From assembly GCA_038874135.1 (NCBI GenBank), contig JAVZCZ010000001.1, positions 224,001 to 288,000 on the forward strand: a DNA stretch of 64,000 nucleotides, given 5' to 3'. Positions 48,276 through 64,000 of the stretch are shown here, in pieces (the stretch's first letter is position 1; each line of letters starts with the position of its first letter). The DNA is from Candidatus Woesearchaeota archaeon (GTDB lineage Archaea; Nanobdellota; Nanobdellia; Woesearchaeales; 0-14-0-80-44-23). The translations under genes were made by a program, and so were the position numbers. A model generated the notes under the pieces. It saw only the letters and a list, made by a program, of their open reading frames with translations. It was not told the origin of the DNA and made no database searches.

Positions 48276-48551
48276 AACTTCACACTAATAAAAAATGGGT
48301 ATATAAAGATTGCTAGATCAGATATAAAGATTTAAAAAATAACAGTAAATTTAAACCAGATGAAATATTTCAGTATTTAATAAGCAGAATTCATAATCTT
48401 TAAAAATGGAACAAGTATTTTAGAAGATAGTTAATGCTTAAGTAAATTTAAAATACAAAGTGAATAATTTTTACAAGTAAAATAAAGGTTTGTTTATTGA
48501 ATTAAAAATGATAGCAATAACTAAAAAAAGAACAAATTAAAGTGGTTTCCT

Positions 48552-50048: not shown

Positions 50049-50160
50049 AATATAATAAAAAAAATCTAAGATTTTAAGTTACCTGTGAAGTAGTAGGTTT
50101 AATTACAAATACAGGAAAATCGCAATAGCATTATAAGCTAAAAACTTTTTCAACTCAAAA

Positions 50161-51534
50161 ATGAAAATTTTACTACTCAACCCGGAGAGTTCCAGCAGGG
50201 AATTCAGAGATCCTCTACTATTAAGATGCGGAGGCGTTGAAAAAAAAGCACCATACCTATTACCTCCGATAGGTCTAGTATATTTAGCATCTTTGCTCTC
50301 ACATAATTTTTATGTTGAGATAGTTGACCGGGCAATCCAAAAAAAGAGTTTAGGATATATAAAAAATTTTGATTGCATAATCGTGAATGTCGGTTTGTCC
50401 AGCATCAATGAAGATTTGAAGTTTTGCCGAAAATTAAAAACAAAAAAGAATGTGATTGGCTTATGCGGCGGCGCACCTGCTTATTTTTCAAAAGAGGTAA
50501 TGAGTAAAGAAAAAGAAATAGACTTTATAATATTAAATGTAACGCCAGAACTTGTGAAGATATCTAAAGAAAACATAAAATCCAAAAACTTTGAAGGTGT
50601 GGAAAATGTTTGTTACCGAAAAAATAGAGAAGTAATAACAAATAGAATAGTTCCTCTCAGAAATATCAACAAGTTACCATCTCCACGCTATGAACTTCTA
50701 CCTAAAGGGTATTATGACATACTTGCAAAAGGCAAAAAAATTGCCGCAATTATTACAAGTCTTGGCTGTCCTTTTTCTTGCAATTTCTGTTCAGCAAATA
50801 CCGGCAAAAATTATTCTGAAAGAAATCTTAAAATACTTTTTTCTGAAATTGACACTTTATGCAAAAATTATGAGGACATAATCTTTTGGGATGATAATTT
50901 CACTGCTAATAAGAAGAGATGTGAAAAAATATGCGATTATCTAAAAACTAAAAAAATTAATTTCAGGTGTCTTTCACGAGCAGATGGGATTGATTATGAA
51001 CTTTTGAAAAATATGAAAGAAGCAGGATGCTATCAAATACAATTCGGAATTGAATCCGGTTCAGAGAGAATGCTCTCATTAATGAATAAACGCTTAAATC
51101 TTTTCAAAGCAAAGAAAACGCTTAAAGCGTGCGATATGTTAGGAATTGAAACAGTAGCATTTTTCATAATTGGCTATCCCGGAGAAGATAAAAGTGACAT
51201 AGAAAAAACAGTGAAGTTTATTAAAGATACTAATCCTGATTTTATTTCAATAAATAATTATATTAAAATGCCCGGCTCAACTGACCAACCTAAAAAAATT
51301 TCAGAAATCAAAAATGTGAAAAAATATAATGAAACTATTATTAACAAAATTTATCATGAATATTATTTCAATTTAAGTTATGTTGCAGCACGAACTGAAA
51401 AGTTAATAAGACATTTAGATTATGCTTCATTATTCCTGAAACAAAATATAAAATTCTGGTTATTAAAAGAGGGAAAGTTGTGGAAAGCAATAAGAAAGTA
51501 TAAAAAAATAAAAAGAGGATATATTAGCAAATAA
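50161..51534 (+). CDS. Cobalamin-binding radical SAM protein (class B methyltransferase-like)
   Basis: PPIGLVYLAS, TSLGCPFSCNFC, DDNF, FGIESGS, FIIGYPGE. Confidence 0.88.
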   Translation: MKILLLNPESSSREFRDPLLLRCGGVEKKAPYLLPPIGLVYLASLLSHNFYVEIVDRAIQKKSLGYIKNFDCIIVNVGLSSINEDLKFCRKLKTKKNVIGLCGGAPAYFSKEVMSKEKEIDFIILNVTPELVKISKENIKSKNFEGVENVCYRKNREVITNRIVPLRNINKLPSPRYELLPKGYYDILAKGKKIAAIITSLGCPFSCNFCSANTGKNYSERNLKILFSEIDTLCKNYEDIIFWDDNFTANKKRCEKICDYLKTKKINFRCLSRADGIDYELLKNMKEAGCYQIQFGIESGSERMLSLMNKRLNLFKAKKTLKACDMLGIETVAFFIIGYPGEDKSDIEKTVKFIKDTNPDFISINNYIKMPGSTDQPKKISEIKNVKKYNETIINKIYHEYYFNLSYVAARTEKLIRHLDYASLFLKQNIKFWLLKEGKLWKAIRKYKKIKRGYISK

Positions 51535-51547
51535 AGAGGATTGTTAA

Positions 51548-53140
51548 ATGAATAAGAAGTTTAGCTTAGAAACAATTGATATAATTTTTATAATAATTCT
51601 CCTAACGATTTCAACAATCATAAAAATTCAGACATATCCGGATGGCATCGCGATAGATGAAGCAAACCATTGGGCAGAAGTAAGACACCACAAAATCCTA
51701 GAAGTATACACAGGAAATTACAACTCTCCAATGCCTGAAAGCCCCCTCTTTTTTTATATAAACTATCTAATGATACGCATAAAAAATGACCTACTCATCT
51801 TCAGAATACCGCAAATACTCTTCTCATACGCCACAATAATACTATTCTACATATTCGCAAAAACATTCTTCAATCGATATACTGCATTTCTAGCATCATT
51901 TCTCCTAACTATCTCTCGTTCATTCAACTTAGTAAGCGCTTATGTAAACCCACATATTTATCAAATGTTTTTTTCTCTGGCTACGATAATAACATATATG
52001 TTAGCAGTCAAAGAAAAAAATGAAAAATATTTAATCTGGACTTTTATATTTGCAGCAATATGCTATCTTATAAACCCTTTAGGAGTTATAACAATTACTA
52101 CACTCATATTCTCATTGTTATTAGTCAAAAATAAATTCATTTATGTAAGTAAAAACAAAAGTAGTAAAAAATTAGTGGTATCAAAAAATTTAATATTTGG
52201 GTTATTAATATTTTTTTTGATAACGATAGTTATTTCACCTGGCCAATTTTTAAAAGGACGTTTTATTAAAGATACCTTATTACGAAGAAGTTTTATACAA
52301 GAAGAAAAAAGAAATATGAATATCCCTTCTTTTTCTTTTTCATTATTAATAACTTTATGGAATGTGAACGTGGGTTTTACAAAGGTCTTTATAATAATAG
52401 GAGCAATAGGAGCGATAATAATTTCATTTAAGAAAAAAATTCTATTGCCCCTTCTGATTTACCTTCTAACCTATTTATTCGTTATGTCATTTGCCAAAGG
52501 TGCTGTGACTTATACAGTTCATATTATTATGTTTTTATATATCTTTTTTTCAGAAATAGCATTCAAAATAATAAATATATTTTTTATTTTTGTGCATAAA
52601 GCTTTTTCAAACAAACTAAGTCTTATACAAAAAAAAGAAAGAATAAATACTTATTTAAGAATTTTAGGGCTTATTGTTATCCCGATACTTCTATTATTTT
52701 TATATGAAAGTGAAAAAAAATATTACAAATGTAATATGCAAACATCGCTAGGACACGAGCAAAGTAAAAAAGTGTATGAGTATATAAAAAGTAAAAACGA
52801 AAGCGGCGTTTATATACTTCTAGATGTTATTGCGAGTTCAATAAATTATTATGTAAGTAGGGATAAGGTTGATATTCATGTTTTTGGAATTAATCATTTG
52901 TCAAATTTTAGTTTAGAAATGATAAATGAGGCGCTTCCACCTGAACATTATTATTATGATTATATTGTTTTAGAAGATTATGATTATCTTAATAAAAATT
53001 CTAGTAGGTATACTACTTTTCAAAAAATAGAGGAAACATGTATTCTGGAAACAAAAATTACACGGTCAAGTTGTTTCGCTGATATTCGCAGAATGTCTAT
53101 TTTTAACTGCAAAAACATGACACTTACTTCTAAAAGTTAA
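51548..53140 (+). CDS. GT-C fold glycosyltransferase (ArnT/PMT-like)
   Basis: DE motif after TM1 (AIDEANH), PLFFY, R..Q..FS..T, many TM segments, extracellular C-terminal domain. Confidence 0.75.
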   Translation: MNKKFSLETIDIIFIIILLTISTIIKIQTYPDGIAIDEANHWAEVRHHKILEVYTGNYNSPMPESPLFFYINYLMIRIKNDLLIFRIPQILFSYATIILFYIFAKTFFNRYTAFLASFLLTISRSFNLVSAYVNPHIYQMFFSLATIITYMLAVKEKNEKYLIWTFIFAAICYLINPLGVITITTLIFSLLLVKNKFIYVSKNKSSKKLVVSKNLIFGLLIFFLITIVISPGQFLKGRFIKDTLLRRSFIQEEKRNMNIPSFSFSLLITLWNVNVGFTKVFIIIGAIGAIIISFKKKILLPLLIYLLTYLFVMSFAKGAVTYTVHIIMFLYIFFSEIAFKIINIFFIFVHKAFSNKLSLIQKKERINTYLRILGLIVIPILLLFLYESEKKYYKCNMQTSLGHEQSKKVYEYIKSKNESGVYILLDVIASSINYYVSRDKVDIHVFGINHLSNFSLEMINEALPPEHYYYDYIVLEDYDYLNKNSSRYTTFQKIEETCILETKITRSSCFADIRRMSIFNCKNMTLTSKS

Positions 53141-53376
53141 TAACAAGCAAGAACCAAATTAAAAGAATTAAAAAACATTTAATTCAAAAGAAATTAAATT
53201 TACAATACGGTGGTTAGAGTGTAACAAAAAATGATTAAAAGAATATACGATTTTGAGAGTTAAAAAAATTATTATAGTAAACGAATTAGAATTTAAACAG
53301 AATGGAAAAGTATATTCTAAAATTGCATATTTAAAAAACGAAAATTTTTATAATACTCATACAATATTAAGATTTT

Positions 53377-54498
53377 GTGAGAATCCTAATATTTAACAAA
53401 TACTGTCCTAAGCATCCTCTGGCTGGAGGAGCTGAATTCAGATTATATGAAGTAATGAAGCGCATAGCTTTGAAAGGTAATAAAGTTTATCTGGTGTCAG
53501 CAATTTTTCCCGGAGCAAAGCGAAAAGAAATTCTGGATGGCATTCACATCTACAGAATAGGCCTGAGAACAGCTTACAATACTTTGTTTGTTCACATACT
53601 TGGAGTTTTTAGTATGCGGAGGTGGGTCAATAGATTTAAACCAGAAATAATTTTTGAAGATATAAGTCCACTTCCGTGGTTTTCTCCCTTAATTGTTCCT
53701 AAGAATAAAAAGGTAATTATAATGCATCATTTAAATGGAAAAACATTCTTTAAAACTCAAAGCCTAATTAAAGCGGCAATAGCGTATATTCTTGAAAAAT
53801 CAGTATTTGTATTATACAAAAAAGAAAGAATTATTGTTATAAATAAGTATTTAGAAGAGAAACTCAAAAACGAAGGTTTTCAGGACATAATTAGAATAGA
53901 AGATGGTGTTGATACAAAAAAGTATGTTCCTAACAAAAGGATTAAGACAAGAAATCCGACAGTGATATTCTTAGGAAGACTAGATAAGAGGAAGGGTGCA
54001 CACCTGCTATTGAAAACATATCAGAAAGTAAAAGAGAGCATTCCAAATGTTGAATACTGGATTGTGGGAGATGGAGTTGAAAGGAAAAAGTTGGAGCAGA
54101 TGGCAATACGAATTGGAGAGCTCGGACACGGCATAAAATTCTTAGGATTTAAGAGCGGCAGTGAAAAGATAAGGATAATACAAAAAAGTTGGCTGATTGC
54201 AGTTCCCTCACTTGCAGAAGGTTATGGCTTAGCTGTTCTTGAAGCAAATGCCTGCGGAGTTCCAGCAATTGCAAATAATGTTCCCGGACTTTCAGAATCA
54301 GTAATACACGAAAAAACAGGCATACTTGTAGATTGTTCAAATACAGAAATATTTGCTAAAAGGATTATAGAAATATTAAAAGATAAAAAGAGGTTAGATA
54401 AGATGGGCGGGAATGCTCGCAAGTTTGCACTCAACTACTCTTGGGATGAGTGCGCTGAAAAAACCTTACAAGTGCTAAAATCTGCGGTGAAAGATTGA
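53377..54498 (+). CDS. Glycosyltransferase family 4
   Basis: HPLAGGAE, FLGRLDKRKG, EGYGLAVLEANACGVP. Confidence 0.92.
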   Translation: MRILIFNKYCPKHPLAGGAEFRLYEVMKRIALKGNKVYLVSAIFPGAKRKEILDGIHIYRIGLRTAYNTLFVHILGVFSMRRWVNRFKPEIIFEDISPLPWFSPLIVPKNKKVIIMHHLNGKTFFKTQSLIKAAIAYILEKSVFVLYKKERIIVINKYLEEKLKNEGFQDIIRIEDGVDTKKYVPNKRIKTRNPTVIFLGRLDKRKGAHLLLKTYQKVKESIPNVEYWIVGDGVERKKLEQMAIRIGELGHGIKFLGFKSGSEKIRIIQKSWLIAVPSLAEGYGLAVLEANACGVPAIANNVPGLSESVIHEKTGILVDCSNTEIFAKRIIEILKDKKRLDKMGGNARKFALNYSWDECAEKTLQVLKSAVKD

Positions 54499-55424
54499 CA
54501 AGCAAGCTTTTAAGTATAATAATACCTAACTTTAATGGAGAAGAGAGCATAAGAGACACTATAAAGAGTGCTGAGCTTTCAGCAAGAGGAATAAAGTTTG
54601 AGGTAATAGTGGTTGACGACTGCTCCACAGATGATTCTCAAAAGATACTTAAAAGGATCAATAGAAACGACAGGAGATTAAAAGTTATAAATAACATTAA
54701 GAGAAGGGGAGCTGCCTTCTGCAGAAACATTGGAGCAAAAAAAGCTGAAGGCAAAGTTCTTCTGTTTATAGATAATGATGTATTCTTGAAAGGAGATACT
54801 GCTAAGAAACTGGTAAAATCTGCGCTGCATAATAGAGGAGTATCTTTTCCAAAGATAAGATTTAGTAACAGAAGGATAATGTGGCCAGCTTCAAAAGAGG
54901 AAGAGAAATTTTTAGGTATAAGTGCATGTTTTGCTATTCCTAAAAAGTTATTTAAAAGAGTTGGATTTTTTGATGAGGCTTATGAAACATATTTGGAAGA
55001 TGCCGATTTCTTTGTAAGATGCAAGCTAAACGGGGTTGGCTTTTATTATGAAAAAAATGCCGTGGCAATTCACAAGGTGCCGAAATTTTACGATGGAACC
55101 AGAAGGTATTTCTTAGAGAACAGAAACTTAACATATGGGATGTTAAAGTTTTTGAAAATTCCAAAAAAAGAAAAAAGTCCATTCGTGTTAAGTTCACTTT
55201 TAAAAAATCTTGTCTGCGGATTGTTTAATTTTAGATGGTTTGATTGGAGCTATTATGATAGAAATTTAAACTTTAAAGAAAAAGTTAATTTACTTTTTAG
55301 AAAGCATAGAAAACTCTCTCAAAATTGCGGTTGCTTTACAGTACTGGTGTTTTTTGTAGGAATAATAACTGGATTGTTTAGATTTTTTATTTCAAAATCA
55401 AAAACAACATTTATAAATAAATGA
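54495..55424 (+). CDS. Glycosyltransferase family 2
   Basis: SIIIPNFN, VVDDCSTD, RNIGA, FIDND, GFFDE...EDAD. Confidence 0.92.
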   Translation: MTSKLLSIIIPNFNGEESIRDTIKSAELSARGIKFEVIVVDDCSTDDSQKILKRINRNDRRLKVINNIKRRGAAFCRNIGAKKAEGKVLLFIDNDVFLKGDTAKKLVKSALHNRGVSFPKIRFSNRRIMWPASKEEEKFLGISACFAIPKKLFKRVGFFDEAYETYLEDADFFVRCKLNGVGFYYEKNAVAIHKVPKFYDGTRRYFLENRNLTYGMLKFLKIPKKEKSPFVLSSLLKNLVCGLFNFRWFDWSYYDRNLNFKEKVNLLFRKHRKLSQNCGCFTVLVFFVGIITGLFRFFISKSKTTFINK

Positions 55425-55443
55425 GTATAGTTACATACAGAGA

Positions 55444-56268
55444 ATGATCGTCCATTACCGCAAAATAAAAGAAGATAAAGGTTTAATGTTTTTGAGAAAA
55501 AGCTGGTTGAAATTTAAAAAAGATGTTTTTATTATAAAAACTTTAGCGCTTAATGAGTTTAAGCTTAGATATTTAAATGCAAAATTTGGTTACTTTTGGT
55601 TAGTTATCTCTCCGCTAGTGATGTTATTAGCATTATACATAGTGTTTTCTAAAGCAGTTCATATAGAAGTTCCACATTATCAGTTTTTTCTGCTTTTAGG
55701 TATTGTAATTTGGAATTTTTTTTCAGAAGCCACCTTGCAAGGAATGAATTCGTTAATAAACAACAAGGGGGTATTAAACTCAATCTCTATTTCAAAACAC
55801 TACTTAGTTATTGCTTCTTTTATTGCTTCATTACTATCATTTTTTATAAATTTAGGCATATTTTTTTTGTTTGAAATGGTAAGAGGAATAACATTCAAAT
55901 TATCTCATCTATTGTTTGCGTTGACCATTCTTGAATGCGCACTTTTGGTTTTAGGGATTTCGTTTATTTTATCTGTCGCTTATCCACTATCACGAGATGT
56001 TGCACATTTGTGGAATATATTCATAACTATTAGTTTTTGGGTTTCTCCAATTGTTTACAGAGAAACGCAAATTCCAAAGCAATACTTAAGATATTACATG
56101 CTTAACCCGATCGCCAGAATAGTGAATGAGGCAAGAGACATTTTAATATATGATTATGTTCCTTCAATAAAACAAATATTTATTACTATAGCTATAGTTT
56201 TAATAATTTTTATATTTGGTTTAATATATTTTAATAAAAAAGTAGATAAAGTTGTAGAAGCCCTATGA
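55444..56268 (+). CDS. wzm: Polysaccharide ABC exporter permease (Wzm/TagG)
   Basis: FKLRYLNAKFGYFWLVISPL, WNFFSE, RDVAHLW, SPIVY, LNP. Confidence 0.9.
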   Translation: MIVHYRKIKEDKGLMFLRKSWLKFKKDVFIIKTLALNEFKLRYLNAKFGYFWLVISPLVMLLALYIVFSKAVHIEVPHYQFFLLLGIVIWNFFSEATLQGMNSLINNKGVLNSISISKHYLVIASFIASLLSFFINLGIFFLFEMVRGITFKLSHLLFALTILECALLVLGISFILSVAYPLSRDVAHLWNIFITISFWVSPIVYRETQIPKQYLRYYMLNPIARIVNEARDILIYDYVPSIKQIFITIAIVLIIFIFGLIYFNKKVDKVVEAL

Positions 56269-56277
56269 GGATAAAAA

Positions 56278-58215
56278 ATGAATGTAATAGAATTAGACAA
56301 TATTTCCAAAATATACGCTGCTAATAATTGTGAAAAAAGTATTTATGCTCTAAAAGATTTTAGTATAAAGATTAAAAAGGGAGAGATAGTAGGAATTATC
56401 GGACCTAATGGTTCTGGAAAAACAACACTCTTAAAAATAATTGCAGGAATTTTAAAGCCGGATTCTGGAAGGGTAATAGTTAAAGAAAAAATACTTCCAT
56501 TTATTGAGATGGGTTCCGGATTAAGATTAGAACTGAGCGGGAAAGAGAATATAAGAATGAATTGTGCCATGTTAGGAATACCACCTAATCAGATTGAAGA
56601 ACAAATGAAAAGAATAATCTCTTTTTCAGGATTATCTGAATTTATTGATGAACCAGTAAGAACTTACTCAAGTGGTATGAAAGCAAGACTCGTATTTAGC
56701 AGTTTTCTATTAAATGATTTTGATGTTTTATTAATTGATGAAGCAATTGCAGTTGGAGACGAGCTATTTCGTAATAAGAGTTTTAATTTATTACAAAAAT
56801 TAAAAAATTCAAAAAAAACTGTTTTAATCGTATCACATGACTTAAACATTATTCAAAAAAATTGTAACAGGGTTTTATACTTAGATAACGGGATAAAAAG
56901 AGAGTATGGTCCTCCGGAAAAAGTCATCAGTAAATATTTTGATGATTTATATAAAAGAGTAACAAAGAGATTTATCCAGAAATTTGAAAAAGTTGTAGAT
57001 GAACTTAAAAATTTAAAAAATAGTTCAGATGTGATTAAAGAAGAAAAAACTGAGGATGCTACTTTATTTGAAAAAATTAGAGCTTGGAGCGCAGAAAAAG
57101 AAAGAGAGAAAGTTTTAAAACGCATTAAAGAGTTAGAGTTTTGGTTAGAAGACAATTGTTACGAACAGATAAACATTTTAAATAAACAGTTAAGTTATAT
57201 AAATGAAAATTTAGAAAAAAGTAAAGATAATAGAATAAAATCTAGATTGCTGAAACAGAAAGTAAAGATATTAAAAATATTAGAAAGAATATTAACAGAA
57301 GATTATACACTCAAAAAAAATAATTTTGAAGAATTTAGTAAAGAGATAGTACTCTTAGTAAAAAATGGATTACAAGTAATAAAAGATAAAAAGAGAGAAT
57401 TGTTTGAACTTAGAAGATATAAAAATTTAATAGAACAGGAAGTGTCTGACAAAAGTGTCGTTAGAGAGCAATTAGATTATATTGAAAGTAGGTTACAATT
57501 GTTAATGTTGTTTGATGGAAGAGTATGCACTAATGATGAATTGAAAAAAATAAAAGAAACAGCCGAAGAAAATCCTCACGGCGGAATACAAATAGCACAA
57601 GATATTTTAAACAAGAAAGTATTAAGAATAGAAGAAGAATTAGTTCAAACAAAGTTCAGATTGGAAAATAAGAAAGAGAATTCTGTAAAATTAAAAAACA
57701 AGATGAAAAAATTAGAAAAACAAAAAGATAAAATACTAAAAATTCTGATAAGTATACAAAAACAATTGAAAATAAGAAGAGCAGAAGATACACTGAAAAT
57801 AATCAAGGTGAATTTGAAAACTAAAATCGGAAATACTTATAAAGAAACACAAACTTTTCAAACGCATGCAAAAATGAAAATTGAGATTGAGTATTATACA
57901 GAAAAAATAATTAAAGATCCAGTCTTCGGAATTGCTTTCTATAGTTACGATGGACGATTGATATATGGACCTAACACTGAGATAGACAAACTTTGTTTAA
58001 AAGAAATAGGAAGGAGAGGAAAGATAGAATACACAATAGAAAGATTACCTTTTTTGCCTGGGAAGTACATATTGACTGTAGCAGCACATACAAAAGATAA
58101 CTATATCCCCTATGATATAAGAAACAAAACTATAATATTTAGAGTTATGGGAGAAAATAGAGAGAACGGATTAATTCACATTGAAGGCAGATGGAAACAT
58201 TTTAGATATGTTTAA
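56278..58215 (+). CDS. wzt: Polysaccharide ABC exporter ATPase (Wzt) with long coiled-coil insert and C-terminal carbohydrate-binding domain
   Basis: GPNGSGKTT, YSSGMKARL, IDEAIAVGD, VSHD; about 280 aa of heptads; PVFGIAFYS.DG..I.GPNT...LPFLPGKY Wzt_C. Confidence 0.88.
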   Translation: MNVIELDNISKIYAANNCEKSIYALKDFSIKIKKGEIVGIIGPNGSGKTTLLKIIAGILKPDSGRVIVKEKILPFIEMGSGLRLELSGKENIRMNCAMLGIPPNQIEEQMKRIISFSGLSEFIDEPVRTYSSGMKARLVFSSFLLNDFDVLLIDEAIAVGDELFRNKSFNLLQKLKNSKKTVLIVSHDLNIIQKNCNRVLYLDNGIKREYGPPEKVISKYFDDLYKRVTKRFIQKFEKVVDELKNLKNSSDVIKEEKTEDATLFEKIRAWSAEKEREKVLKRIKELEFWLEDNCYEQINILNKQLSYINENLEKSKDNRIKSRLLKQKVKILKILERILTEDYTLKKNNFEEFSKEIVLLVKNGLQVIKDKKRELFELRRYKNLIEQEVSDKSVVREQLDYIESRLQLLMLFDGRVCTNDELKKIKETAEENPHGGIQIAQDILNKKVLRIEEELVQTKFRLENKKENSVKLKNKMKKLEKQKDKILKILISIQKQLKIRRAEDTLKIIKVNLKTKIGNTYKETQTFQTHAKMKIEIEYYTEKIIKDPVFGIAFYSYDGRLIYGPNTEIDKLCLKEIGRRGKIEYTIERLPFLPGKYILTVAAHTKDNYIPYDIRNKTIIFRVMGENRENGLIHIEGRWKHFRYV

Positions 58216-58227
58216 CAAAAAAAGAAA

Positions 58228-60024
58228 ATGAAAAGCCAATTTAAAAATCCTGAGGAAATGCGGAAGTTTAAAAAACGAATGAAACAAGTTGCTCAAAAAT
58301 ATATTAGAAAATTGAAAAAGAACCGCCATATAATAGGCATTGCATTTGATGGATCTATAGTACATGGAAGAGTAACAAAGAATTCAGACATCGATATCTA
58401 TTGTTTTTATGAGCCCGCCTATTTTAAAAAGGAGATAGAAGGAAAAAAAGAATTTTACGATATAATAGACAAGTCTGGATTTATAGTTCAAATAAATAAT
58501 ATTTCAATAGAATTGTCTGACAAGAATATTTTTCATCAGTTGTTAAACAATTCACATGAAGAGTGGGTAAGGTACAAGAATCATTGTAGAATGCTATTGC
58601 CAGTTTATGATCCCCTAGGAAAAATTGCTGCCTTTAAAAGAAGAATGTCAAAAATTTACGATGAAGAATTGGCTTATATTCTTCCGATATATTTAAAGGA
58701 AATTGCGCTTACCAGTTCAGCAATACGAAAGTTTTCATTAATCCCGTTAAAAAAAAATGATGAGTTAATAAAAAATATATTTGCTTTAAGATGTGTATAT
58801 GCGTCTCTCTATGCTACTTACCTTGCGAATAGGAAATTGCCCCCATATCAGAATCCTCTTTTTAAATTTGAGATTTCCTCACTTAAAAACAAGCCCCTCT
58901 CTCTTTGCAGCCTATTAGAAAAAGGATCAAAGGATTATACGGGTATCGCTTTAAAAATTGCAGATGAAACATTAGGAATGTTTATCCCAATTGCCCAAGA
59001 TCTTTGTAGAAAAGTTGGAGTAAAATTGTATAATAATGAAGATTATTTAAAGATAGATGCTTATGCAATTTCTCAGTATGTCAAAGAAGAGTTCTTACAC
59101 GCTATAGAAGCAGATTTGGGAATTTTAAAAAGAAGGGAACTATTAAAAAAGAAATGCTTATATGACTACTATGCTTTTGCGTTAAGAAAAAATATTTATG
59201 ACGAAATGGCAAGAACAAAAGATCAGGCTAAGATTGAAAAAAAGATTGAAGAACTTATTAAAATTCTTAGGATCGGTTTAAAAAATAATTTTGATAATAA
59301 AGATATTTTAAAAGGCGAACTTGCAGATGTTCTTAACAAAAAAGCAGCACTTCCTTTTCTAAACATAAGAGAAAGAATAAAAGCAGAAGAAGAGGCAAGA
59401 GAGATAAGAAATACTATAAAAAATTATAATACAGACCCGAATTTGATCAGGAAGAAAATTGAAGAATATGAATTATTAATGCGGGAATTAAAACTAAAAA
59501 CAAACGACAAACTTACTATCACAAAAATAAAAAATTACATTAGAATTCTAAAAGAGGACCTGAGGAAAAACAAAAATAGAGAGGCATTAACAAAAAAATT
59601 AGGGATTATAAAAATAAGAAATGTGAAATTCTTGAATAAAAAAATGTATCCATCTCATATTTTCAGATCGGGAGATCAGATGATAATTAAAATAGATTAT
59701 CATGCACTTAGAAAAGTAGAAAATCCTGTTTTCGGCATCGCTTTTTATAGTGAAGATGGCGTACACATCGCGGGCCCGAACACTAGATTTAGTGGTCTAA
59801 AGATAAAGTATGTAAAAGGAAAAGGCAGTGTATTTTTCAAAATTAATAAACTGCCATTGTTGGAAGGAAAATATTTTGTTACAGTAGCAGTCCACCCATA
59901 TAAGTCGTTTGAACCTTATGATGTACATATAAAGCGGTATAGCTTTAAAGTTGTAGATTCTCCGCCTGAGCCGGGATTCTTACATCTTGATTCGGAATGG
60001 ATAATAAGTAAGCAAAAGCAGTAA
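58228..60024 (+). CDS. Nucleotidyltransferase (pol-beta superfamily) fused to Wzt-type carbohydrate-binding domain
   Basis: GSIVHGRVTKNSDID near the N-terminus; helical middle; C-terminal PVFGIAFYSEDGVHIAGPNT...LPLLEGKY. Confidence 0.78.
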   Translation: MKSQFKNPEEMRKFKKRMKQVAQKYIRKLKKNRHIIGIAFDGSIVHGRVTKNSDIDIYCFYEPAYFKKEIEGKKEFYDIIDKSGFIVQINNISIELSDKNIFHQLLNNSHEEWVRYKNHCRMLLPVYDPLGKIAAFKRRMSKIYDEELAYILPIYLKEIALTSSAIRKFSLIPLKKNDELIKNIFALRCVYASLYATYLANRKLPPYQNPLFKFEISSLKNKPLSLCSLLEKGSKDYTGIALKIADETLGMFIPIAQDLCRKVGVKLYNNEDYLKIDAYAISQYVKEEFLHAIEADLGILKRRELLKKKCLYDYYAFALRKNIYDEMARTKDQAKIEKKIEELIKILRIGLKNNFDNKDILKGELADVLNKKAALPFLNIRERIKAEEEAREIRNTIKNYNTDPNLIRKKIEEYELLMRELKLKTNDKLTITKIKNYIRILKEDLRKNKNREALTKKLGIIKIRNVKFLNKKMYPSHIFRSGDQMIIKIDYHALRKVENPVFGIAFYSEDGVHIAGPNTRFSGLKIKYVKGKGSVFFKINKLPLLEGKYFVTVAVHPYKSFEPYDVHIKRYSFKVVDSPPEPGFLHLDSEWIISKQKQ

Positions 60025-60027
60025 TGG

Positions 60028-61224
60028 TCATGTCAGCTTTTTAAAAAAAAGTAGCGGAGCCATAAGCTTGTGAATGTGAGCGTTCATTTCAATGTTATCG
60101 CATTCTTTTTTACATCCTGAACGGGCATGTGGATCATTTCCAATGTATTTAAAGAAATTTCCTTCTTTTTTATATTTAAATGTTTTTTTTCTAAAAAAGT
60201 TTTGCTTTTCTCCATACCATATGTCTTTAAAATTCTCTTTAAAAATATTTCCTGAAGGAATTCTATGAGCTTTTAAACAGGGTATAACATTACCATTAGC
60301 CATTATTCTGGCAAAAGTCCAGCCTGCGTAACAAGGCATTGAATCTACCACGATATTATCATAACTGGTATATTTTATCATGTTTTGCAAACGAATTTTT
60401 AACAGTTCAATATTTTTAACTTTTGTTTTGCTTTGATAAGTTGTTTCCAATTGATTAGTTAATAAGTCTAACTCTGAAATTTCTTTTAAAAGAACTTTAG
60501 CTTGTTTTTTGCTAATCTGCAAAAAAGAAGTTTTTTTAGGTATAATATCTACAGGAGTAAAATCAACTGAATCGGCACCAACTTCAAAAGCAAATTTTAT
60601 CATTTCATTAAATTCATGAGCATTAACATTCATAAGAACATTATGTATATTTACAAAAGGCTTACTAACATGGTTTACTTTTTTTATTTCATTTAAAAAT
60701 TTAAGATTTTCTTTTAACTTAAAAAAAGTATTAGGTTCACTACCCAAGTGAGTTTTGTTATAAGTTTCAGCAGTAGCTGCCCATATACTAATATTCATTT
60801 CGTCAACACCAAGTCCGACCAGTTCTCTTAACATTTTCTTACTTAAGAGAGTAAAATTAGTGCTCATTGCACATCTCATTCCATACTTTTTTATTAGTTT
60901 TATAACTTGCATGCTATTAGAATGCATAAATGGCTCTCCACCACCTGTCAGATATACTTCTCTGACGCCCAACTCATTAAATTCTTTAACAAGCTCTTCT
61001 ATTTTTTTAAAAGGTATCTCTTGTTTAATTTCCTCAGGAGACATTGCTAAATCTTTTAAAAAGGGGGAGCGACACCAGCAGGCAATACATCGGTTATTAC
61101 ATTTATTAGTCAAGTCAATTTGCACAATAAGAGGGCCTGTGATTGATCTGCCTGCTAGAACACCTAATCCGATAAGAAAGTAATGTTTTAAACTTTTTAT
61201 TTTTCTTACAAGTTCCAATTTCAC
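60028..61224 (-). CDS. Radical SAM protein with SPASM/Twitch domain (paralog 3)
   Basis: CNNRCIAC, GGGEPF, PCYAGW..RIMANGNVIPC, CKKEC. Confidence 0.9.
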   Translation of the reverse strand: MKLELVRKIKSLKHYFLIGLGVLAGRSITGPLIVQIDLTNKCNNRCIACWCRSPFLKDLAMSPEEIKQEIPFKKIEELVKEFNELGVREVYLTGGGEPFMHSNSMQVIKLIKKYGMRCAMSTNFTLLSKKMLRELVGLGVDEMNISIWAATAETYNKTHLGSEPNTFFKLKENLKFLNEIKKVNHVSKPFVNIHNVLMNVNAHEFNEMIKFAFEVGADSVDFTPVDIIPKKTSFLQISKKQAKVLLKEISELDLLTNQLETTYQSKTKVKNIELLKIRLQNMIKYTSYDNIVVDSMPCYAGWTFARIMANGNVIPCLKAHRIPSGNIFKENFKDIWYGEKQNFFRKKTFKYKKEGNFFKYIGNDPHARSGCKKECDNIEMNAHIHKLMAPLLFFKKLT

Positions 61225-61237
61225 ACCTTTCTAATTT

Positions 61238-62488
61238 TTAGATTATTTTTTTCATAATCTTATCAAATAAATTAAGAGAATTAAGCATGTCTTCGGTATC
61301 TTGATTTAATGCAATGTTATCACATGTTTTAAAACAATTTGTTGTTAGGAAGAAAGAATCTTTTGTTTTATCATTTTTGTATCGACGTCTTATGTCAGCA
61401 AGTTTAGCATTATTCCATATCTCTTTAAAGCTCTGTTTGTAAATATTGCCCAAAACTTCATCAGATTTAAGACAAAAGTTAACATCACCATTAGCAAGTA
61501 TTCTGCTATATGTCCATCCTGCATAACAAGGAATATTGTTAATTACCTCGCACTCATATTCACCCTTTCCTGCATTTTTGCTTAACATTCTGGTTATAAA
61601 TCTATCATAATCAAGTATAAAAAGGTTAGATTTTGAAAGATTGGTTTCATCTTCATCAATTATCTGCTTTGCTTTTTTTATTTTTTGTATTACTTCTTTT
61701 CTTTGTTTTTCGTTTAATATGAGAAATTCTGTTTTGCCAGAGATTGGATCAACTGGAACAAACTGCACTGAATCAGCTTCTACTTCTAGTCCAAGTCGGG
61801 CCATGTCTTCTATTTCAGTATAGTTCCAGCTCGTTATTACATTGTAAAGATTTACGTGTGGCGTATGCCGAATTCTCTTAATACTAGCTAAGTATTTTAA
61901 ATTATCTTTGATTTGAAGAAAAGTTGAAACATTTTTATTAGGATGCATCTTTACATACATTTCAGGTGATGCGGCCCAAAGACTTACGTTGATTTGATCA
62001 AAATTAATGGATACAAGTTCGTCTATCATTTCTTTATTTAATAGAGTAAAGTTGGTATTTATGTCACATTCAAAACCAAGTTTTTTTGCATATTTCAGAA
62101 TTTGCATTATTTCAGGATGAAGAAAAGGTTCTCCTCCCCCACCAAAATATAATTTACGGGTTCCTAATGAGTGCAATTCACGCATAACCTTTTTTATTAT
62201 ATCAAAAGATAATTCTTGTTTTTTCCATTCGCGCAAATCTTTTGAATCTTCTAAATAGGGTGAACCAACCCAGCAGGCGATGCAATTATTATTACACTTA
62301 TTAGTTATGTTAATTTGCACTAGTGTTGGACCGGTGAATGTTTTATAGACTGAATCTATCCCTTTTGCAATTCTAAGATTATGAAAGTAATATTTTAAAC
62401 CTCTTATAATGTCACTTCTTTTATATTCTAAGTAATCTAAGTGTGTGCGAAAGTGTACAGGAAGTTTTTTTCTTCGCCTTATTAGCAT
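61238..62488 (-). CDS. Radical SAM protein with SPASM/Twitch domain (paralog 2)
   Basis: CNNNCIAC, GGGEPF, PCYAGW..RILANGDVNFC, CFKTC. Confidence 0.9.
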   Translation of the reverse strand: MLIRRRKKLPVHFRTHLDYLEYKRSDIIRGLKYYFHNLRIAKGIDSVYKTFTGPTLVQINITNKCNNNCIACWVGSPYLEDSKDLREWKKQELSFDIIKKVMRELHSLGTRKLYFGGGGEPFLHPEIMQILKYAKKLGFECDINTNFTLLNKEMIDELVSINFDQINVSLWAASPEMYVKMHPNKNVSTFLQIKDNLKYLASIKRIRHTPHVNLYNVITSWNYTEIEDMARLGLEVEADSVQFVPVDPISGKTEFLILNEKQRKEVIQKIKKAKQIIDEDETNLSKSNLFILDYDRFITRMLSKNAGKGEYECEVINNIPCYAGWTYSRILANGDVNFCLKSDEVLGNIYKQSFKEIWNNAKLADIRRRYKNDKTKDSFFLTTNCFKTCDNIALNQDTEDMLNSLNLFDKIMKKII

Positions 62489-62498
62489 AGTTTTCGCC

Positions 62499-63749
62499 TT
62501 ATTGAGTATTATTTTTAGTAAATTTTTTCCTCAGCTTTAGATATAATGCGGCACTTTTAAGTAAAAACCTTTGAGATTTAGTTAGTGACTTAACACGCTG
62601 ATGCATAGGTTCGTTCTGCCAGAGATTGTCACAAGTTTTTATACACTGAAATGGTACAAAGTAAGGATCTGTGAGTGGAAGGTGTGTTCCTTTATATCGG
62701 AATTCTTTTTGTAATTTATCTTCCCAGATTTGTTTGAATCTTTTTGAATATACATTACCCATGGGTTTTAAATAACCCTTGCAGCACGGCACTACATTTC
62801 CATTTGCCATAACTCTGGAAAACATCCATCCTGCATAACAAGGAATATGCTTTATAACAGATTCATCGTATATTCCTTTATCTGCTTTTTCACTTTTTAT
62901 TCTGCGTTCAAATTCTTCAAGAGCGACAACTTGTAGGGGATACTCTCTTTTTGGACTAGAAATTGTCTGAGTAGCAGGGTCTATTCTTTTTTTAAGCTCT
63001 TCTATTTCTTTGAGTAAGAAATTTCTCTCCTCATCTTTTAAAAGAAGAACGTCAGTTCTACCTTCTACAGGATCCATTGCTACGAACTGAACAGCTTCAC
63101 TTCCAGTTTCAAAAGCTAGTTCAACCATCTCATTAATTTCGTGGTAATTCTTATCAAATATTACGTTATAAAGTTTTATTGTTGGCTTTACCTTTCCAGT
63201 CTCTTTTTTATAATTATTAATAAATTTAAGAACTTTTACTATACGAGAAAAAGTTTCACCAGTTTGATTGGCATGTGTAGCTGCGTAAGTTTGAGGCGTG
63301 GCTGCCCACACACTTACAGTCATAAGGTCAACATTCCAATCTACTAATTTTCTAGCAATTTCTTCTGTTACTAAAGTAAAATTTGTATTAATGTCAAGTG
63401 CAAATCCTTTTTTTGTAGCATATTCTATGAGCTCCAAGGCATTTGGATGCATGAATGGTTCTCCACCGCCAACATATTTGAGCTGTCTAGTTCCCATAGA
63501 GTAGGCATCATCTAGAATTCCTTTAACAATTTCTGTAGGTAAAGTTTTTACTTGCTCTTCAGGAGTCATAAATTTATCTCTAAGCAGTGGAGAACGACAC
63601 CAGCACGCCAAACATTGATTGTTGCACATATTAGTTAAATCTATATGCAACATCTCTGGACCTTTGAATGCTTCTTTTCCATCTAACACTCCAACTAAGT
63701 CTAAATTATTTCTTATAAAGTTAGATAGTTTACTTATACTAACTTTCAT
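62499..63749 (-). CDS. Radical SAM protein with SPASM/Twitch domain (paralog 1)
   Basis: CNNQCLAC, GGGEPF, PCYAGW..RVMANGNVVPCC, CIKTC. Confidence 0.9.
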   Translation of the reverse strand: MKVSISKLSNFIRNNLDLVGVLDGKEAFKGPEMLHIDLTNMCNNQCLACWCRSPLLRDKFMTPEEQVKTLPTEIVKGILDDAYSMGTRQLKYVGGGEPFMHPNALELIEYATKKGFALDINTNFTLVTEEIARKLVDWNVDLMTVSVWAATPQTYAATHANQTGETFSRIVKVLKFINNYKKETGKVKPTIKLYNVIFDKNYHEINEMVELAFETGSEAVQFVAMDPVEGRTDVLLLKDEERNFLLKEIEELKKRIDPATQTISSPKREYPLQVVALEEFERRIKSEKADKGIYDESVIKHIPCYAGWMFSRVMANGNVVPCCKGYLKPMGNVYSKRFKQIWEDKLQKEFRYKGTHLPLTDPYFVPFQCIKTCDNLWQNEPMHQRVKSLTKSQRFLLKSAALYLKLRKKFTKNNTQ

Positions 63750-64000
63750 ATTTTTACCTCTCGTTTTAATTCGTGTTGATGAATTACAACATCTCTAGGT
63801 ATATTCGTAGTGTATACTACTAGATTAAGCTCTTTTAATATTTCTAATAATTCTTTCCCTCTTCTCATTCGGGTTTCATAGTTATCTCCATTTTTTGTAT
63901 ACCATGTTGCTGCTCTTTGGTCTTCATCTCCTTTAAAAAGTAGTCCATATTTTTCCTGATTTATATCCAGTTCAGAGTTTAGGTTTATACAAAGTGTATT
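63746..64000 (-). CDS. C-terminal fragment of a gene running off the window, possibly a B12-binding radical SAM protein
   Basis: Open frame NTLCINLNSELDINQEKYGL...WYTKNGDNYETRMRRGKELL...EVKI*; its TGA overlaps the next ATG (ATGA). Confidence 0.55.
   Translation of the reverse strand, partial: NTLCINLNSELDINQEKYGLLFKGDEDQRAATWYTKNGDNYETRMRRGKELLEILKELNLVVYTTNIPRDVVIHQHELKREVKI

What the first reader, a model, noticed from the sequence alone, without database searches (positions are those of the whole stretch)
58228..60024. Nucleotidyltransferase fused to a second Wzt carbohydrate-binding domain
Seen: an N-terminal GS-x10-DID pol-beta motif, a helical region reminiscent of KNTase/DUF4037 C-domains (YLANRKLPPY), a coiled coil, then a C-domain clearly paralogous to the adjacent Wzt CBD (shared PVFGIAFYSxDGxxIxGPNT, LPxLxGKY, PYD). 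It has no ATPase domain and lies 12 nt after wzt. Known: Wzt CBDs dimerise, KNTase-type enzymes nucleotidylate sugar hydroxyls, and described export caps include methyl, phospho-methyl and Kdo. Inference: an enzyme that docks on the exporter via CBD heterodimerisation and adds an NMP cap, or regulates export by NMPylation. I know no characterised protein with this architecture.
Basis: partly seen in the sequence, partly recalled or inferred. Interest (0 to 1): 0.8.

Follow-up and report, generated by a model that had tools for sequence, protein, structure and literature searches.

The report
Sugar-tagging enzyme fused to exporter's glycan reader
A tiny archaeon encodes, right after its sugar-polymer export pump, a very rare protein that joins a kanamycin-nucleotidyltransferase-like enzyme to a second copy of the pump's sugar-end-reading domain; it probably tags or caps the polymer before export, but no activity has been tested.

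Summary
Positions 58228-60024 are one open 598-residue frame, 12 nt after wzt. It carries the GS-x10-DID motif and a C-terminal Wzt_C domain (E 1.2e-25) that is 38% identical to the neighbouring Wzt's domain.

The fusion is real. Four other full-length members exist (57, 50, about 30 and about 30% identity). Two of them sit in the same GT4-GT2-wzm-wzt-X locus.

In AlphaFold models, residues 11-274 match the whole two-domain ANT(4')/kanamycin nucleotidyltransferase (Z 14.4-15.0, 231-237 of 253 residues). Residues 459-586 match the Aquifex Wzt carbohydrate-binding domain (Z 13.9). The "coiled coil" is mostly a helical bundle plus two long helices.

Caveats:
- The third catalytic carboxylate is Gln or His in all five members.
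- Two members are not next to wzt.
- Sister loci lack the gene.
- A near-identical strain has it split by one extra A in an A9 run.

A model of the two carbohydrate-binding domains as a heterodimer passes (0.64 against control 0.00), but only by likeness to solved Wzt homodimers.

The family is very rare: 2 of 401 genomes searched in its order, and 3 representatives among 1.8 billion proteins.

Best reading: a cytoplasmic glycan-end-directed nucleotidyltransferase, either a cap writer or a tailoring enzyme. It is a new variant of a known kind, with untested chemistry. The scan has noted other enzyme-Wzt or enzyme-CBD fusions on other DNA, but not this one.

The parts
58228..60024 (+). Whole gene: 598-aa NTase / helical / Wzt_C fusion protein (P0001), stop codon included
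   Evidence: Single ORF. Full-length relatives P0003, P0008, P0004 and the G003 protein.
58228..58647 (+). Residues 1-140: pol-beta-type nucleotidyltransferase domain
   Evidence: Pfam NTP_transf_2 and Polbeta at 24-98. The profile aligns to KNTase residues 14-120. Strands and helices in the models.
58351..58395 (+). Residues 42-56: G-S ... S-D-I-D nucleotide- and metal-binding motif, invariant in all five members
   Evidence: Alignment A5. These residues align to KNTase S39, S49, D50 and E52 (roles from PMC4631478).
58489..58491 (+). Codon of Q88, at the position of the third carboxylate or catalytic base (KNTase E76, LinB E89, AadA E87). It is Gln in the three wzt-linked members and His in the other two.
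   Evidence: hhalign; MAFFT alignment with generic NTases that carry D or E there; alignment A5.
58648..59043 (+). Residues 141-272: KNTase-type helical domain, with invariant K142, Y144, E146 and E147 at the start of its first helix
   Evidence: VIA-align covers model residues 12-272 against ANT(4') residues 6-249. Invariant columns.
58749..58757 (+). A9 homopolymer inside the gene. A near-identical strain has A10 here, which splits the gene into 177-aa and 395-aa products.
59044..59436 (+). Residues 273-403: family-specific helical bundle with no family assignment
   Evidence: Full-length model, pLDDT 85-95. Only weak TPR-like or helical-repeat matches, Z 8-9. No Pfam match. No likeness to the Wzt linker.
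59437..59601 (+). Residues 404-458: two long helices leading into the carbohydrate-binding domain (the only coiled-coil-like part)
   Evidence: crude heptad scan.
59602..60024 (+). Residues 459-598: Wzt_C carbohydrate-binding jelly-roll domain, with the C-terminal strand used for dimer exchange
   Evidence: Pfam E 1.2e-25. phmmer to 6o14/8dky, E 1e-7. Z 13.9, rmsd 2.2 A to 6o14. Modelled interface residues.
56278..58215 (+). wzt: 645-aa ABC ATPase with a roughly 280-residue helical linker and its own Wzt_C domain (residues 506-634, nt 57793-58179)
55444..56268 (+). wzm: ABC-2 permease of the exporter
53377..55424 (+). GT4 and GT2 glycosyltransferases upstream in the same gene string, syntenic in loci L001-L004 and L008

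Best explanation
The gene encodes a soluble cytoplasmic enzyme built from three parts. The first is a complete two-domain ANT(4')/KNTase-type nucleotidyltransferase, the kind that puts an NMP on a sugar hydroxyl. The second is a family-specific helical spacer. The third is a Wzt-type carbohydrate-binding domain. I propose that this last domain brings the enzyme to the non-reducing end of the lipid-linked glycan made by the GT4/GT2 genes of this locus. It could do so by binding the glycan end itself, by pairing with the exporter's own domain through C-terminal strand exchange, or both. The transferase domain would then modify a terminal sugar hydroxyl before the Wzm/Wzt pump exports the chain, acting as a cap writer or terminal tailoring enzyme beside the cap reader. 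Shown here: the domain composition, the folds, the conservation of the nucleotide and metal motif, the synteny and the rarity. Inferred: the glycan as acceptor, an NMP as the transferred group (a phospho-alcohol from an NDP-alcohol, as in LicD-type NTase-fold enzymes, is an alternative), and any effect on export or chain length.
For: 1. Residues 11-274 of the models match whole ANT(4')-Ia. Scores are Z 15.0, rmsd 4.1-4.3 A and 231-234 of 253 residues, Z 14.4 in the Foldseek-independent search, and Foldseek E 1.6e-7. ANT(4')-IIb, LinB and ANT(6) follow; all are enzymes that nucleotidylate sugar hydroxyls.
2. G42-S43 and S53-D54-I55-D56 are invariant across five members that share only 28-57% identity. 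They align with KNTase S39, S49, D50 and E52, which hold the phosphates and Mg (PMC4631478). This argues for a site kept under selection.
3. The C-terminal domain is a bona fide Wzt carbohydrate-binding domain. It keeps the T-x-A-x-H residues that line the cap pocket of the Aquifex domain (T346, A348, H350; with PMC9445017).
4. In three diverged lineages (57% and 50% identity) the gene lies immediately after wzt in the same GT4-GT2-wzm-wzt string.
5. The protein has no membrane segment (maximum hydropathy 1.30), so it sits on the same side of the membrane as the Wzt reader domain.
6. The NTase-linked binding domains keep the loop after the His (PY[N/K]SFxPYDVH) that is found in exporters lacking this partner. 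The three cognate Wzt domains have changed it and sit on a stem twice as long (0.68 against 0.32). A reader that adapted to a modified end would be expected to look like this.
7. A carbohydrate-binding domain expressed separately can serve a truncated WzmWzt in vivo (PMC9445017), so a binding domain acting in trans has precedent.
8. An N-module-only relative in genome G166 lies next to a GT2 gene.
Against: The third motif of the superfamily (h[DE]h) is V-Q-I here and I-H-I in the second subgroup. The equivalent Glu is the catalytic base in LinB and AadA (PMC4631478). KNTase E76Q stays active because E145 can substitute (Matesanz 2012, as cited in PMC6361787), but I could not establish an E145 equivalent here. 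Two of the five members lie next to ABCE1 and near GlmS/GlmM/GlmU genes, not next to wzt. Four closely related wzm-wzt/radical-SAM loci lack the gene, so it is accessory and not the general terminator of this locus type. I found no described nucleotidyl cap on an exported glycan in the papers searched. A near-identical strain carries the gene split by a frameshift. The loop and branch-length argument rests on a single evolutionary event. The AU test does not resolve the origin of the domain (p 0.15).
Confidence: 0.45

Rival explanations
1. It is a non-catalytic adaptor or regulator. The NTase module has lost its catalytic base and only binds a nucleotide. The protein gates export either by pairing its binding domain with that of Wzt or by competing with Wzt for capped chain ends.
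For: The third carboxylate is Gln or His in all five members. AadA E87Q/A and the LinB E89 mutation abolish function (PMC4631478). The heterodimer model passes its controls at 0.64 against 0.00. The gene is dispensable in sister loci.
Against: G-S and S-D-I-D are invariant at 28-57% overall identity. KNTase E76Q retains activity (cited in PMC6361787). Further residues facing the cleft region are invariant (H46, K74, D81, W113, K142, Y144, E146, E147). The heterodimer pass comes from likeness to solved homodimers.
Confidence: 0.22
2. It is a protein-modifying NTase of the MntA or GlnE type. It would NMPylate Wzt or another protein, with the carbohydrate-binding domain serving only as a docking module.
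For: There is a weak NCBIfam match to the MntA antitoxin (E 7e-4, 19.4 bits, far below the cut-off of 60). MNT structures match the N-domain at Z 7-8. Docking to the Wzt domain is possible in the model.
Against: The match to the two-domain sugar-modifying ANTs is much stronger and covers the helical domain too (Z 15 against 7-8). No HEPN-type partner or Rx4-6H motif is conserved in the middle domain.
Confidence: 0.08
3. Its function is unrelated to the neighbouring exporter. It would be a KNTase-like enzyme acting on a soluble sugar-containing small molecule (a metabolite or an antibiotic-like compound), with the binding domain holding that molecule's sugar. Adjacency to wzt would be a by-product of domain duplication in a compact genome.
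For: The closest folds are antibiotic-modifying enzymes. Two members lie in a housekeeping region beside ABCE1. The genome is only 0.91 Mb and densely packed.
Against: The position after wzt is conserved in three diverged loci. Among the nearest relatives, the Wzt_C domain is otherwise found only on exporter ATPases. G003 also has a Wzt with this domain elsewhere in its genome.
Confidence: 0.1
4. The fusion is an artefact of assembly or a frameshift, or the gene is decaying.
For: In the near-identical strain GCA_038871545.1 (also the Logan assembly of SRR27170999), one extra A in the A9 run splits the gene into 177-aa and 395-aa products.
Against: The window's frame is open end to end. Four relatives at 28-57% identity are full length with the same domain order. 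Conservation extends across the junctions.
Confidence: 0.02

Closest known systems
ANT(4')-Ia, kanamycin nucleotidyltransferase (PDB 1kny, 6un8, 6nmk); also ANT(4')-IIb and LinB
   Same: The two-domain fold (NTase domain plus helical domain) matches over 231-237 of 253 residues, Z 14.4-15.0. The G-S and S-D-x-[DE] phosphate and Mg residues are present. These enzymes put an NMP on a sugar hydroxyl.
   Different: Sequence identity is about 10-16% and there is no sequence-level PDB hit. The E76/E89/E87 position is Gln or His. An E145/K149 equivalent is unresolved. The protein carries about 330 extra residues (helical bundle plus Wzt_C). It is archaeal, lies in a glycan locus and has no resistance context.
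Wzt carbohydrate-binding domain of O-antigen ABC exporters (A. aeolicus 6o14/7k2t/8dku; K. pneumoniae O12 5hno; E. coli O9a 2r5o)
   Same: The jelly-roll fold matches at Z 13.9, 11.2 and 10.4, with Pfam Wzt_C at E 1.2e-25. The T-x-A-x-H pocket residues and the C-terminal exchange strand are kept.
   Different: It is not attached to an ABC ATPase. It is fused to an enzyme and present as a second copy beside the exporter's own domain (38% identity).
Chain-terminating enzymes of ABC-transporter-dependent glycan pathways (WbdD kinase/methyltransferase; WbbB and K. pneumoniae O4 ORF7 Kdo transferases; O7 ORF6)
   Same: It is a cytoplasmic tailoring enzyme with an N-terminal catalytic module and a helical spacer, encoded with wzm-wzt whose ATPase has a cap-reading domain. 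K. pneumoniae O7 ORF6 also contains a predicted carbohydrate-binding module, and O4 ORF7 a TPR-like helical bundle (PMC11231755).
   Different: The chemistry (NTase fold) has not been described for a terminator. The C-terminus is a Wzt-type binding domain, not a membrane or polymerase anchor. The helical part is mostly a bundle, not a long ruler. The gene is accessory in this locus type. [quoted passage not shown]
LicD / fukutin / FKRP group of NTase-fold proteins (Kuchta et al. 2009, PMC2794190)
   Same: These are NTase-fold enzymes that decorate glycans, in their case with phosphocholine, ribitol phosphate or mannosyl phosphate taken from NDP-linked donors.
   Different: No sequence or fold match to them appeared here. 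I cite them only to show that NTase-fold chemistry on glycans has precedent and that the transferred group need not be an NMP.

Membership tests
Pol-beta-like nucleotidyltransferase fold superfamily (Kuchta 2009, PMC2794190) | hG[GS] motif at the start of the second core helix | tested here: met
   G42-S43, invariant in five members; aligns to KNTase G38-S39.
Pol-beta-like nucleotidyltransferase fold superfamily (Kuchta 2009, PMC2794190) | [DE]h[DE]h motif on the second core strand | tested here: met
   D54-I55-D56-I57, invariant; aligns to KNTase D50/E52.
Pol-beta-like nucleotidyltransferase fold superfamily (Kuchta 2009, PMC2794190) | h[DE]h third carboxylate on the adjacent third strand | tested here: not met
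   V87-Q88-I89 here; Q in P0003 and P0008; H in P0004 and the G003 member. Generic NTases P0005 and P0006, and KNTase, have D or E there.
Pol-beta-like nucleotidyltransferase fold superfamily (Kuchta 2009, PMC2794190) | Alpha/beta core fold and a family HMM match | tested here: met
   NTP_transf_2 at 22.8 bits against a cut-off of 21; Polbeta at 25.6 against 26.9. Fold matches at Z 15.0 and 14.4.
ANT(4')/KNTase-type aminoglycoside/lincosamide nucleotidyltransferases | NTase domain followed by a helical domain that together form the substrate cleft | tested here: met
   Model residues 12-272 align with chain residues 6-249, 231-234 aligned, rmsd 4.1-4.3 A. This rests on a model built from 4-5 sequences, with pLDDT about 80-90 in this part.
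ANT(4')/KNTase-type aminoglycoside/lincosamide nucleotidyltransferases | Catalytic base (KNTase E145 and/or E76; LinB E89; AadA E87) | tested here: inconclusive
   The E76/E89/E87 position is Q or H. E146 and E147 are invariant at the start of the helix that carries E141/E145/K149 in KNTase. MAFFT pairs them with E141/E142, but I had no residue-level structural alignment.
ANT(4')/KNTase-type aminoglycoside/lincosamide nucleotidyltransferases | Homodimer with active sites shared between subunits; nucleotidylation of a sugar hydroxyl | not tested
Activity needs a bench assay.
Wzt_C carbohydrate-binding domain (PF14524) | Family HMM match above cut-off and the jelly-roll fold of solved Wzt binding domains | tested here: met
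   90.7 bits against a cut-off of 30.4. Z 13.9, rmsd 2.2 A, 121 residues, 27% identity to 6o14.
Wzt_C carbohydrate-binding domain (PF14524) | Fused to the C-terminus of the Wzt nucleotide-binding domain | tested here: not met
   No ABC domain in P0001. Among 56 near relatives of this domain, all others that are complete are ABC_tran + Wzt_C.
Wzt_C carbohydrate-binding domain (PF14524) | Dimer through exchange of C-terminal strands | tested here: inconclusive
   In the model with the Wzt domain, the interface is made by the C-terminal strands of both chains (score 0.64, best control 0.00, at least 92% contact agreement, partner pLDDT at least 78). This is a pass by likeness to solved homodimers and does not separate homo- from heterodimer.
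Wzt_C carbohydrate-binding domain (PF14524) | Binds the modified non-reducing end of the exported glycan | not testable with these tools
   Only the pocket residues T552, A554 and H556 could be mapped onto A. aeolicus T346, A348 and H350 (PMC9445017).
Coiled-coil chain terminators (WbdD/WbbB type; PMC11231755, PMC3482155) | Extended coiled-coil ruler separating the terminating module from the membrane or polymerase end | tested here: inconclusive
   The model shows a bundle of short helices (278-400) and only two long helices (404-458). The crude heptad signal is interrupted by P376, P404 and G350.
Coiled-coil chain terminators (WbdD/WbbB type; PMC11231755, PMC3482155) | C-terminal membrane-binding helix or polymerase recruitment site; required for export of the glycan | tested here: not met
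   The C-terminus is a carbohydrate-binding domain and there is no hydrophobic segment. Sister loci lack the gene, so it is not a general requirement of this locus type.

The most novel reading that the evidence does not exclude
This is a writer-reader pair with a new cap chemistry. The enzyme would add a nucleotidyl (or nucleotide-derived phospho-) cap to the glycan's non-reducing end. Its own binding domain would keep the ancestral specificity for the uncapped end, while the cognate Wzt domain has diverged to read the capped end. The writer would hang from the exporter's stalked binding domain by a strand-swapped heterodimer, so the exporter itself, rather than the polymerase, carries the terminating enzyme at a fixed distance from the membrane.
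Probability: 0.15. Interest if true: 0.85.

Novelty: new variant of a known kind. Interest (0 to 1): 0.6.

Why it matters
In ABC-transporter-dependent glycan export, a cap on the chain end is both the stop signal and the export ticket. The known caps are methyl, phosphomethyl and Kdo, and the known writers are kinases, methyltransferases and glycosyltransferases on coiled-coil rulers.

Here a sugar-nucleotidylating fold is joined to the very domain that exporters use to read caps. If the enzyme is active on the glycan, it would add a new chemistry to chain termination or tailoring. It would also show a new way of bringing writer and reader together.

It would be one of the first mechanistic handles on surface-glycan assembly in small-genome, probably DPANN-type archaea (0.91 Mb here), whose cell surfaces mediate their dependence on hosts.

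The two paralogous binding domains also offer a natural experiment on how cap specificity evolves.

Tried and rejected
1. Sequence route to solved structures for the N-terminal 345 residues. A profile of four members found nothing in the PDB at E up to 10. Only fold comparison worked.

2. Frameshift artefact. Rejected, see the rival explanations.

3. Duplication of the whole C-terminal half of Wzt. The middle helical region shows no likeness to the Wzt linker (BLASTP; hhalign probability 0.1%). Only the binding domain is shared.

4. Recent tandem duplication of the neighbour's binding domain. The two are only 38-40% identical. In the tree the NTase-linked, cognate-Wzt and partner-less-Wzt domains form three clades in a polytomy. 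A clade of NTase-linked plus cognate domains is neither supported nor rejected (AU p 0.15).

5. An APS-using sulfotransferase-like role linked to the neighbouring CysD/CysN module. I considered this because LicD-type NTase-fold enzymes attack the distal group of an NDP-X donor. It has no support: G003 carries a family member but has no CysD-strength match, and L007 shows no sulfate genes.

6. HEPN/KEN nuclease in the middle domain. P0004 has a weak Ribonuc_2-5A match (20.2 bits, below its cut-off). No conserved Arg/His motif exists across the family.

7. Phase variation at the A9 run. Runs of nine or more A or T in the low-GC island number 2 against 2.1 expected from composition. There is therefore no enrichment, and the two assemblies with A10 may derive from the same reads.

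8. Bacterial promoter and terminator scans gave nothing above shuffles and do not apply to an archaeon.

9. The 612-614-aa NTase proteins in G056, G065 and G066 that matched weakly have the motif at residues 166-226 and no Wzt_C. They are unrelated.

10. The complex model cannot tell a heterodimer with Wzt from a homodimer. I do not use it as evidence that the pair binds in the cell.
Full report
WHAT IS THERE

The stretch 58228-60024 (+) is a single open frame of 598 codons. It begins 12 nt after the stop of wzt (56278-58215) and ends 3 nt before a convergent radical-SAM gene.

Pfam finds a C-terminal Wzt_C domain at residues 459-586 (E 1.2e-25). It also finds a weak N-terminal nucleotidyltransferase match at residues 24-98: NTP_transf_2 scores 22.8 bits, just over its cut-off, and Polbeta 25.6 bits, just under. 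There is no ABC domain.

The neighbour upstream is a 645-aa Wzt with an ABC domain, a long linker and its own Wzt_C. Before it come wzm, a GT2, a GT4 and a PMT_2-type membrane transferase. Downstream, on the other strand, lie three radical-SAM/SPASM genes. The two carbohydrate-binding domains are 38% identical over 117 residues (E 4e-29).

HOST AND SETTING

The window holds intron-containing tRNA genes (123 and 102 nt matches). The genome is one contig of 909,956 bp, estimated 99% complete. Relatives of the binding domain are named Woesearchaeota or Nanoarchaeota by their sources. So the host is a small-genome archaeon, probably of the DPANN type.

GC falls from about 0.40 to about 0.30 from roughly 44 kb onwards. 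That stretch also holds a CysD/CysN sulfate-activation module, a phosphodiesterase-fold protein, a sulfatase-fold protein and B12-radical-SAM genes. The genome has only two Wzt_C domains: this one and Wzt's.

THE FUSION IS REAL AND THE FAMILY IS TINY

An exhaustive phmmer search with residues 1-455 against 1.84 billion representatives returned only two true relatives. They are P0003 (594 aa, 56% identity) and P0004 (596 aa, 32%). Three generic short NTases scored near E 1e-4.

The word-indexed search with the binding-domain region added P0008 (609 aa, 50% overall). A genome search added a fifth member in G003, a different genus of the same family (635 aa, 39% identical to P0004). All five have the same order: NTase, helical region, Wzt_C.

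A profile search of 401 genomes sampled from the order (258 genera) found the family in only two, G000 and G003. It also found one N-module-only relative in G166, lying beside a GT2 gene.

P0003 and P0008 sit in loci syntenic with the window: GT4, GT2, wzm, a long wzt, then this gene. A few variable small genes follow, then radical-SAM/SPASM genes and a double B12-radical-SAM gene on the other strand.

The second subgroup (P0004 and G003) lies directly after an ABCE1-type twin-ABC ATPase. It is a few kb from GlmS, a HAD phosphatase, a phosphohexomutase and a GlmU-like gene. G003's Wzt_C-bearing Wzt is on another contig.

Four closely related long-Wzt loci (P0013, P0020, P0015, P0018) have the same glycosyltransferase, wzm-wzt and radical-SAM make-up. 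In them wzt ends against a convergent GT4 gene and this gene is absent. The one other genome of the same genus (93% complete) shows neither a Wzt_C domain nor this gene. The gene is therefore an accessory part of a variable glycan island.

A BROKEN COPY

A strain 99.6% identical over this gene (GCA_038871545.1, also in a Logan assembly of SRR27170999) differs by six substitutions and one extra A in the A9 run at 58749-58757. The insertion splits the gene into a 177-aa NTase piece and a 395-aa piece, P0002.

This could be a sequencing error, decay or on/off switching. Long A/T runs are not enriched in the island (2 against 2.1 expected). The two assemblies may rest on the same reads.

ANATOMY FROM MODELS

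Two AlphaFold models were made:
- residues 1-345, from four sequences, mean pLDDT 70.9 and good up to about residue 265;
- the full length, from five sequences, mean pLDDT 78.6.

Fold comparison gives the following.
- Residues 11-274 match the complete two-domain ANT(4')-Ia kanamycin nucleotidyltransferase. Foldseek gives E 1.6e-7. VIA-align gives Z 15.0, rmsd 4.1-4.3 A and 231-234 of 253 residues. The search that does not lean on Foldseek gives Z 14.4.
- Next come ANT(4')-IIb (Z 12.6), an uncharacterised Exiguobacterium NTase-like protein 3c18 (12.2), LinB (10.7) and ANT(6) (9.0).
- Minimal MNT antitoxins match the N-domain only, at Z 7-8.
- Residues 459-586 match the Aquifex aeolicus Wzt binding domain (Z 13.9, rmsd 2.2 A, 27% identity). 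The K. pneumoniae O12 and E. coli O9a domains follow at Z 11.2 and 10.4. phmmer also finds the Aquifex domain by sequence (E 1e-7).
- Between the two lies a confidently modelled bundle of short helices (278-400) and two long helices (404-424, 428-458). Its only matches are weak TPR-like ones (Z 8-9, within noise for helical proteins). It has no Pfam family and no likeness to the Wzt linker.

No membrane segment is present.

IS THE TRANSFERASE SITE INTACT?

The superfamily is defined by three motifs: hG[GS], [DE]h[DE]h and h[DE]h (PMC2794190). The first two are invariant across all five members (G42-S43; S53-D54-I55-D56-I57). They align with KNTase S39, S49, D50 and E52, which hold the phosphates and Mg (PMC4631478).

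The third motif is not met. The strand reads V-Q-I in the three wzt-linked members and I-H-I in the other two. KNTase has E76 there, and the generic NTases P0005 and P0006 have D or E. The N-module relative in G166 appears to have Ser at this position (alignment by eye).

The equivalent Glu is the proposed catalytic base in LinB (E89) and AadA (E87). Mutating it abolishes function (PMC4631478). In KNTase itself, however, E76Q and E145Q are each still active and only the double mutant is dead (Matesanz 2012, as cited in PMC6361787).

The family has an invariant K142-x-Y144-x-E146-E147 cluster at the start of the first helix of the helical domain. That is the helix carrying E141, E145 and K149 in KNTase. 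MAFFT pairs E146/E147 with E141/E142, but I had no residue-level superposition, so equivalence is open.

My reading is that strict conservation of the nucleotide and metal motif, at 28-57% overall identity, speaks for a working nucleotide site. Catalysis is plausible but not assured.

THE TWO BINDING DOMAINS COMPARED

The phmmer alignment to the Aquifex domain can be read against the ligand contacts described in PMC9445017. The cap-pocket residues T346, A348 and H350 then correspond to T552, A554 and H556 here. The neighbouring Wzt has the same T, A and H. The second subgroup differs (S/T, T, M).

After the His, the three wzt-linked NTase proteins keep PY[N/K]SFxPYDVH. The same loop is found in the partner-less long Wzts. 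The three cognate Wzts read HT[K/E/A]xx[Y/F]xP[Y/L/F]DI.

In a maximum-likelihood tree the NTase-linked, cognate and partner-less domains form three well-supported clades in an unresolved trichotomy within the archaeal long-Wzt group. The cognate clade has a stem of 0.68 against 0.32 for the NTase clade. Holding NTase-linked and cognate domains together is not rejected (AU p 0.15).

This fits a scenario in which the enzyme's domain kept the ancestral specificity and the exporter's domain shifted. But it is one evolutionary event seen in three related pairs.

DOCKING ON THE EXPORTER

I modelled the C-terminal halves of Wzt (206 residues, six-row alignment) and of this protein (199 residues, five-row alignment). 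The score was 0.64 against a best control of 0.00. That mark was reached by 58 of 80 solved complexes and 2 of 110 mismatched pairs in the tool's calibration. The runs agree in at least 92% of contacts, and the partner's pLDDT is at least 78.

The interface is formed by the C-terminal strands and adjoining sheets of both binding domains; the preceding helices take no part. This is the strand-exchange dimer known from solved Wzt domains (PMC9445017). The pass therefore shows likeness. It cannot separate a heterodimer with Wzt from a homodimer of this protein.

MOST LIKELY MECHANISM

I commit, at about 45%, to a cytoplasmic enzyme directed to the glycan end. The Wzt-type domain would bring a KNTase-type transferase to the non-reducing end of the lipid-linked glycan, or to the exporter's reader, or both. 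The transferase would modify a terminal sugar hydroxyl with a nucleotide-derived group before export.

The main rival, at about 22%, is a non-catalytic nucleotide-binding adaptor that modulates export. Lesser rivals are protein NMPylation and a role unrelated to the exporter.

The literature available to me describes terminators as kinases, methyltransferases or glycosyltransferases on coiled-coil rulers. It states that a carbohydrate-binding module has been seen in only one terminator, K. pneumoniae O7 ORF6 (PMC11231755). I found no paper describing an NTase-Wzt_C protein or a nucleotidyl cap. The 2019 bioinformatic survey by Mann, Kimber and Whitfield was not available to read, so prior mention of such an architecture there cannot be excluded.

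EARLIER NOTES OF THIS SCAN

The notes report other tailoring enzymes fused to Wzt or to Wzt_C-like domains in other genomes (sulfotransferase, methyltransferase, radical-SAM modules). I did not check them. They suggest that tethering a tailoring enzyme to the reader domain is a recurring theme, of which this NTase version is a new and very rare instance.

VERDICT

This is a new variant of a known kind. Interest is 0.6.

Noticed in passing
window 58749-58757; L028 and L029 2391-4188: An A9 run inside the gene is A10 in a 99.6%-identical strain (GCA_038871545.1; Logan SRR27170999). This splits the gene into 177-aa and 395-aa products. It could be an error, decay or on/off switching. Long A/T runs are not enriched in the island.
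   Followed up: partly
window 56278-58215: Wzt has about 280 helical residues between its ATPase and its carbohydrate-binding domain. The same long form (659-675 aa) recurs in related archaeal loci. The linker shows no likeness to the middle domain of the NTase protein (hhalign probability 0.1%).
   Followed up: partly
L007 1-2621; L033 10595-14360: The two members of the second subgroup lie directly downstream, within 1-2 nt, of an ABCE1-type twin-ABC ATPase with an Fe-S domain. They are a few kb from GlmS, HAD, phosphohexomutase and GlmU-like genes. This conserved housekeeping context is unlike the window's.
   Followed up: partly
L038 805-1995 (G166): An N-module-only relative (NTase plus helical region, about 400 aa, with one TAA inside the matching frame) lies next to a GT2 gene. 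It also seems to lack the third carboxylate (Ser at that position by eye).
   Followed up: partly
L008 10610-11333: Directly after the P0008 gene are two 109-aa ORFs. The first is only the N-terminal half of a class I SAM methyltransferase, so this looks like a broken methyltransferase gene. At the same place L001 has two ORFs of 225 and 184 aa with no family.
   Followed up: partly
window about 44000-64000: GC drops from about 0.40 to about 0.30 across the whole glycan, sulfate and radical-SAM island. The other genome of the same genus (93% complete) shows no Wzt_C domain. The island looks strain-variable or acquired.
   Followed up: partly
L013 17069-18007 and beyond: The partner-less sister locus carries a called product of 2344 aa with several B12-binding/radical-SAM modules in one protein. 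This is larger than the double module near the window.
   Followed up: no
P0010 (Woesearchaeota 'hypothetical protein', 512 aa) and P0017: These database proteins with only a Wzt_C annotation begin inside the Walker B region of an ABC domain (NNP[DE]I[LI]LIDE). They are N-terminally truncated Wzt proteins, not stand-alone binding-domain proteins.
   Followed up: partly
window 13804-13926 and 15181-15282: Two tRNA matches span 123 and 102 nt, far longer than a tRNA. They probably contain introns, which fits an archaeal host.
   Followed up: no
window 41943-43118; L013 2176-3472; L035 313-1618: A pair of adjacent HIT-domain genes accompanies this locus type, including in loci that lack the NTase gene. 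HIT proteins act on nucleotide-linked groups, so a link to a nucleotide-derived glycan modification is conceivable. I did not test this.
   Followed up: no
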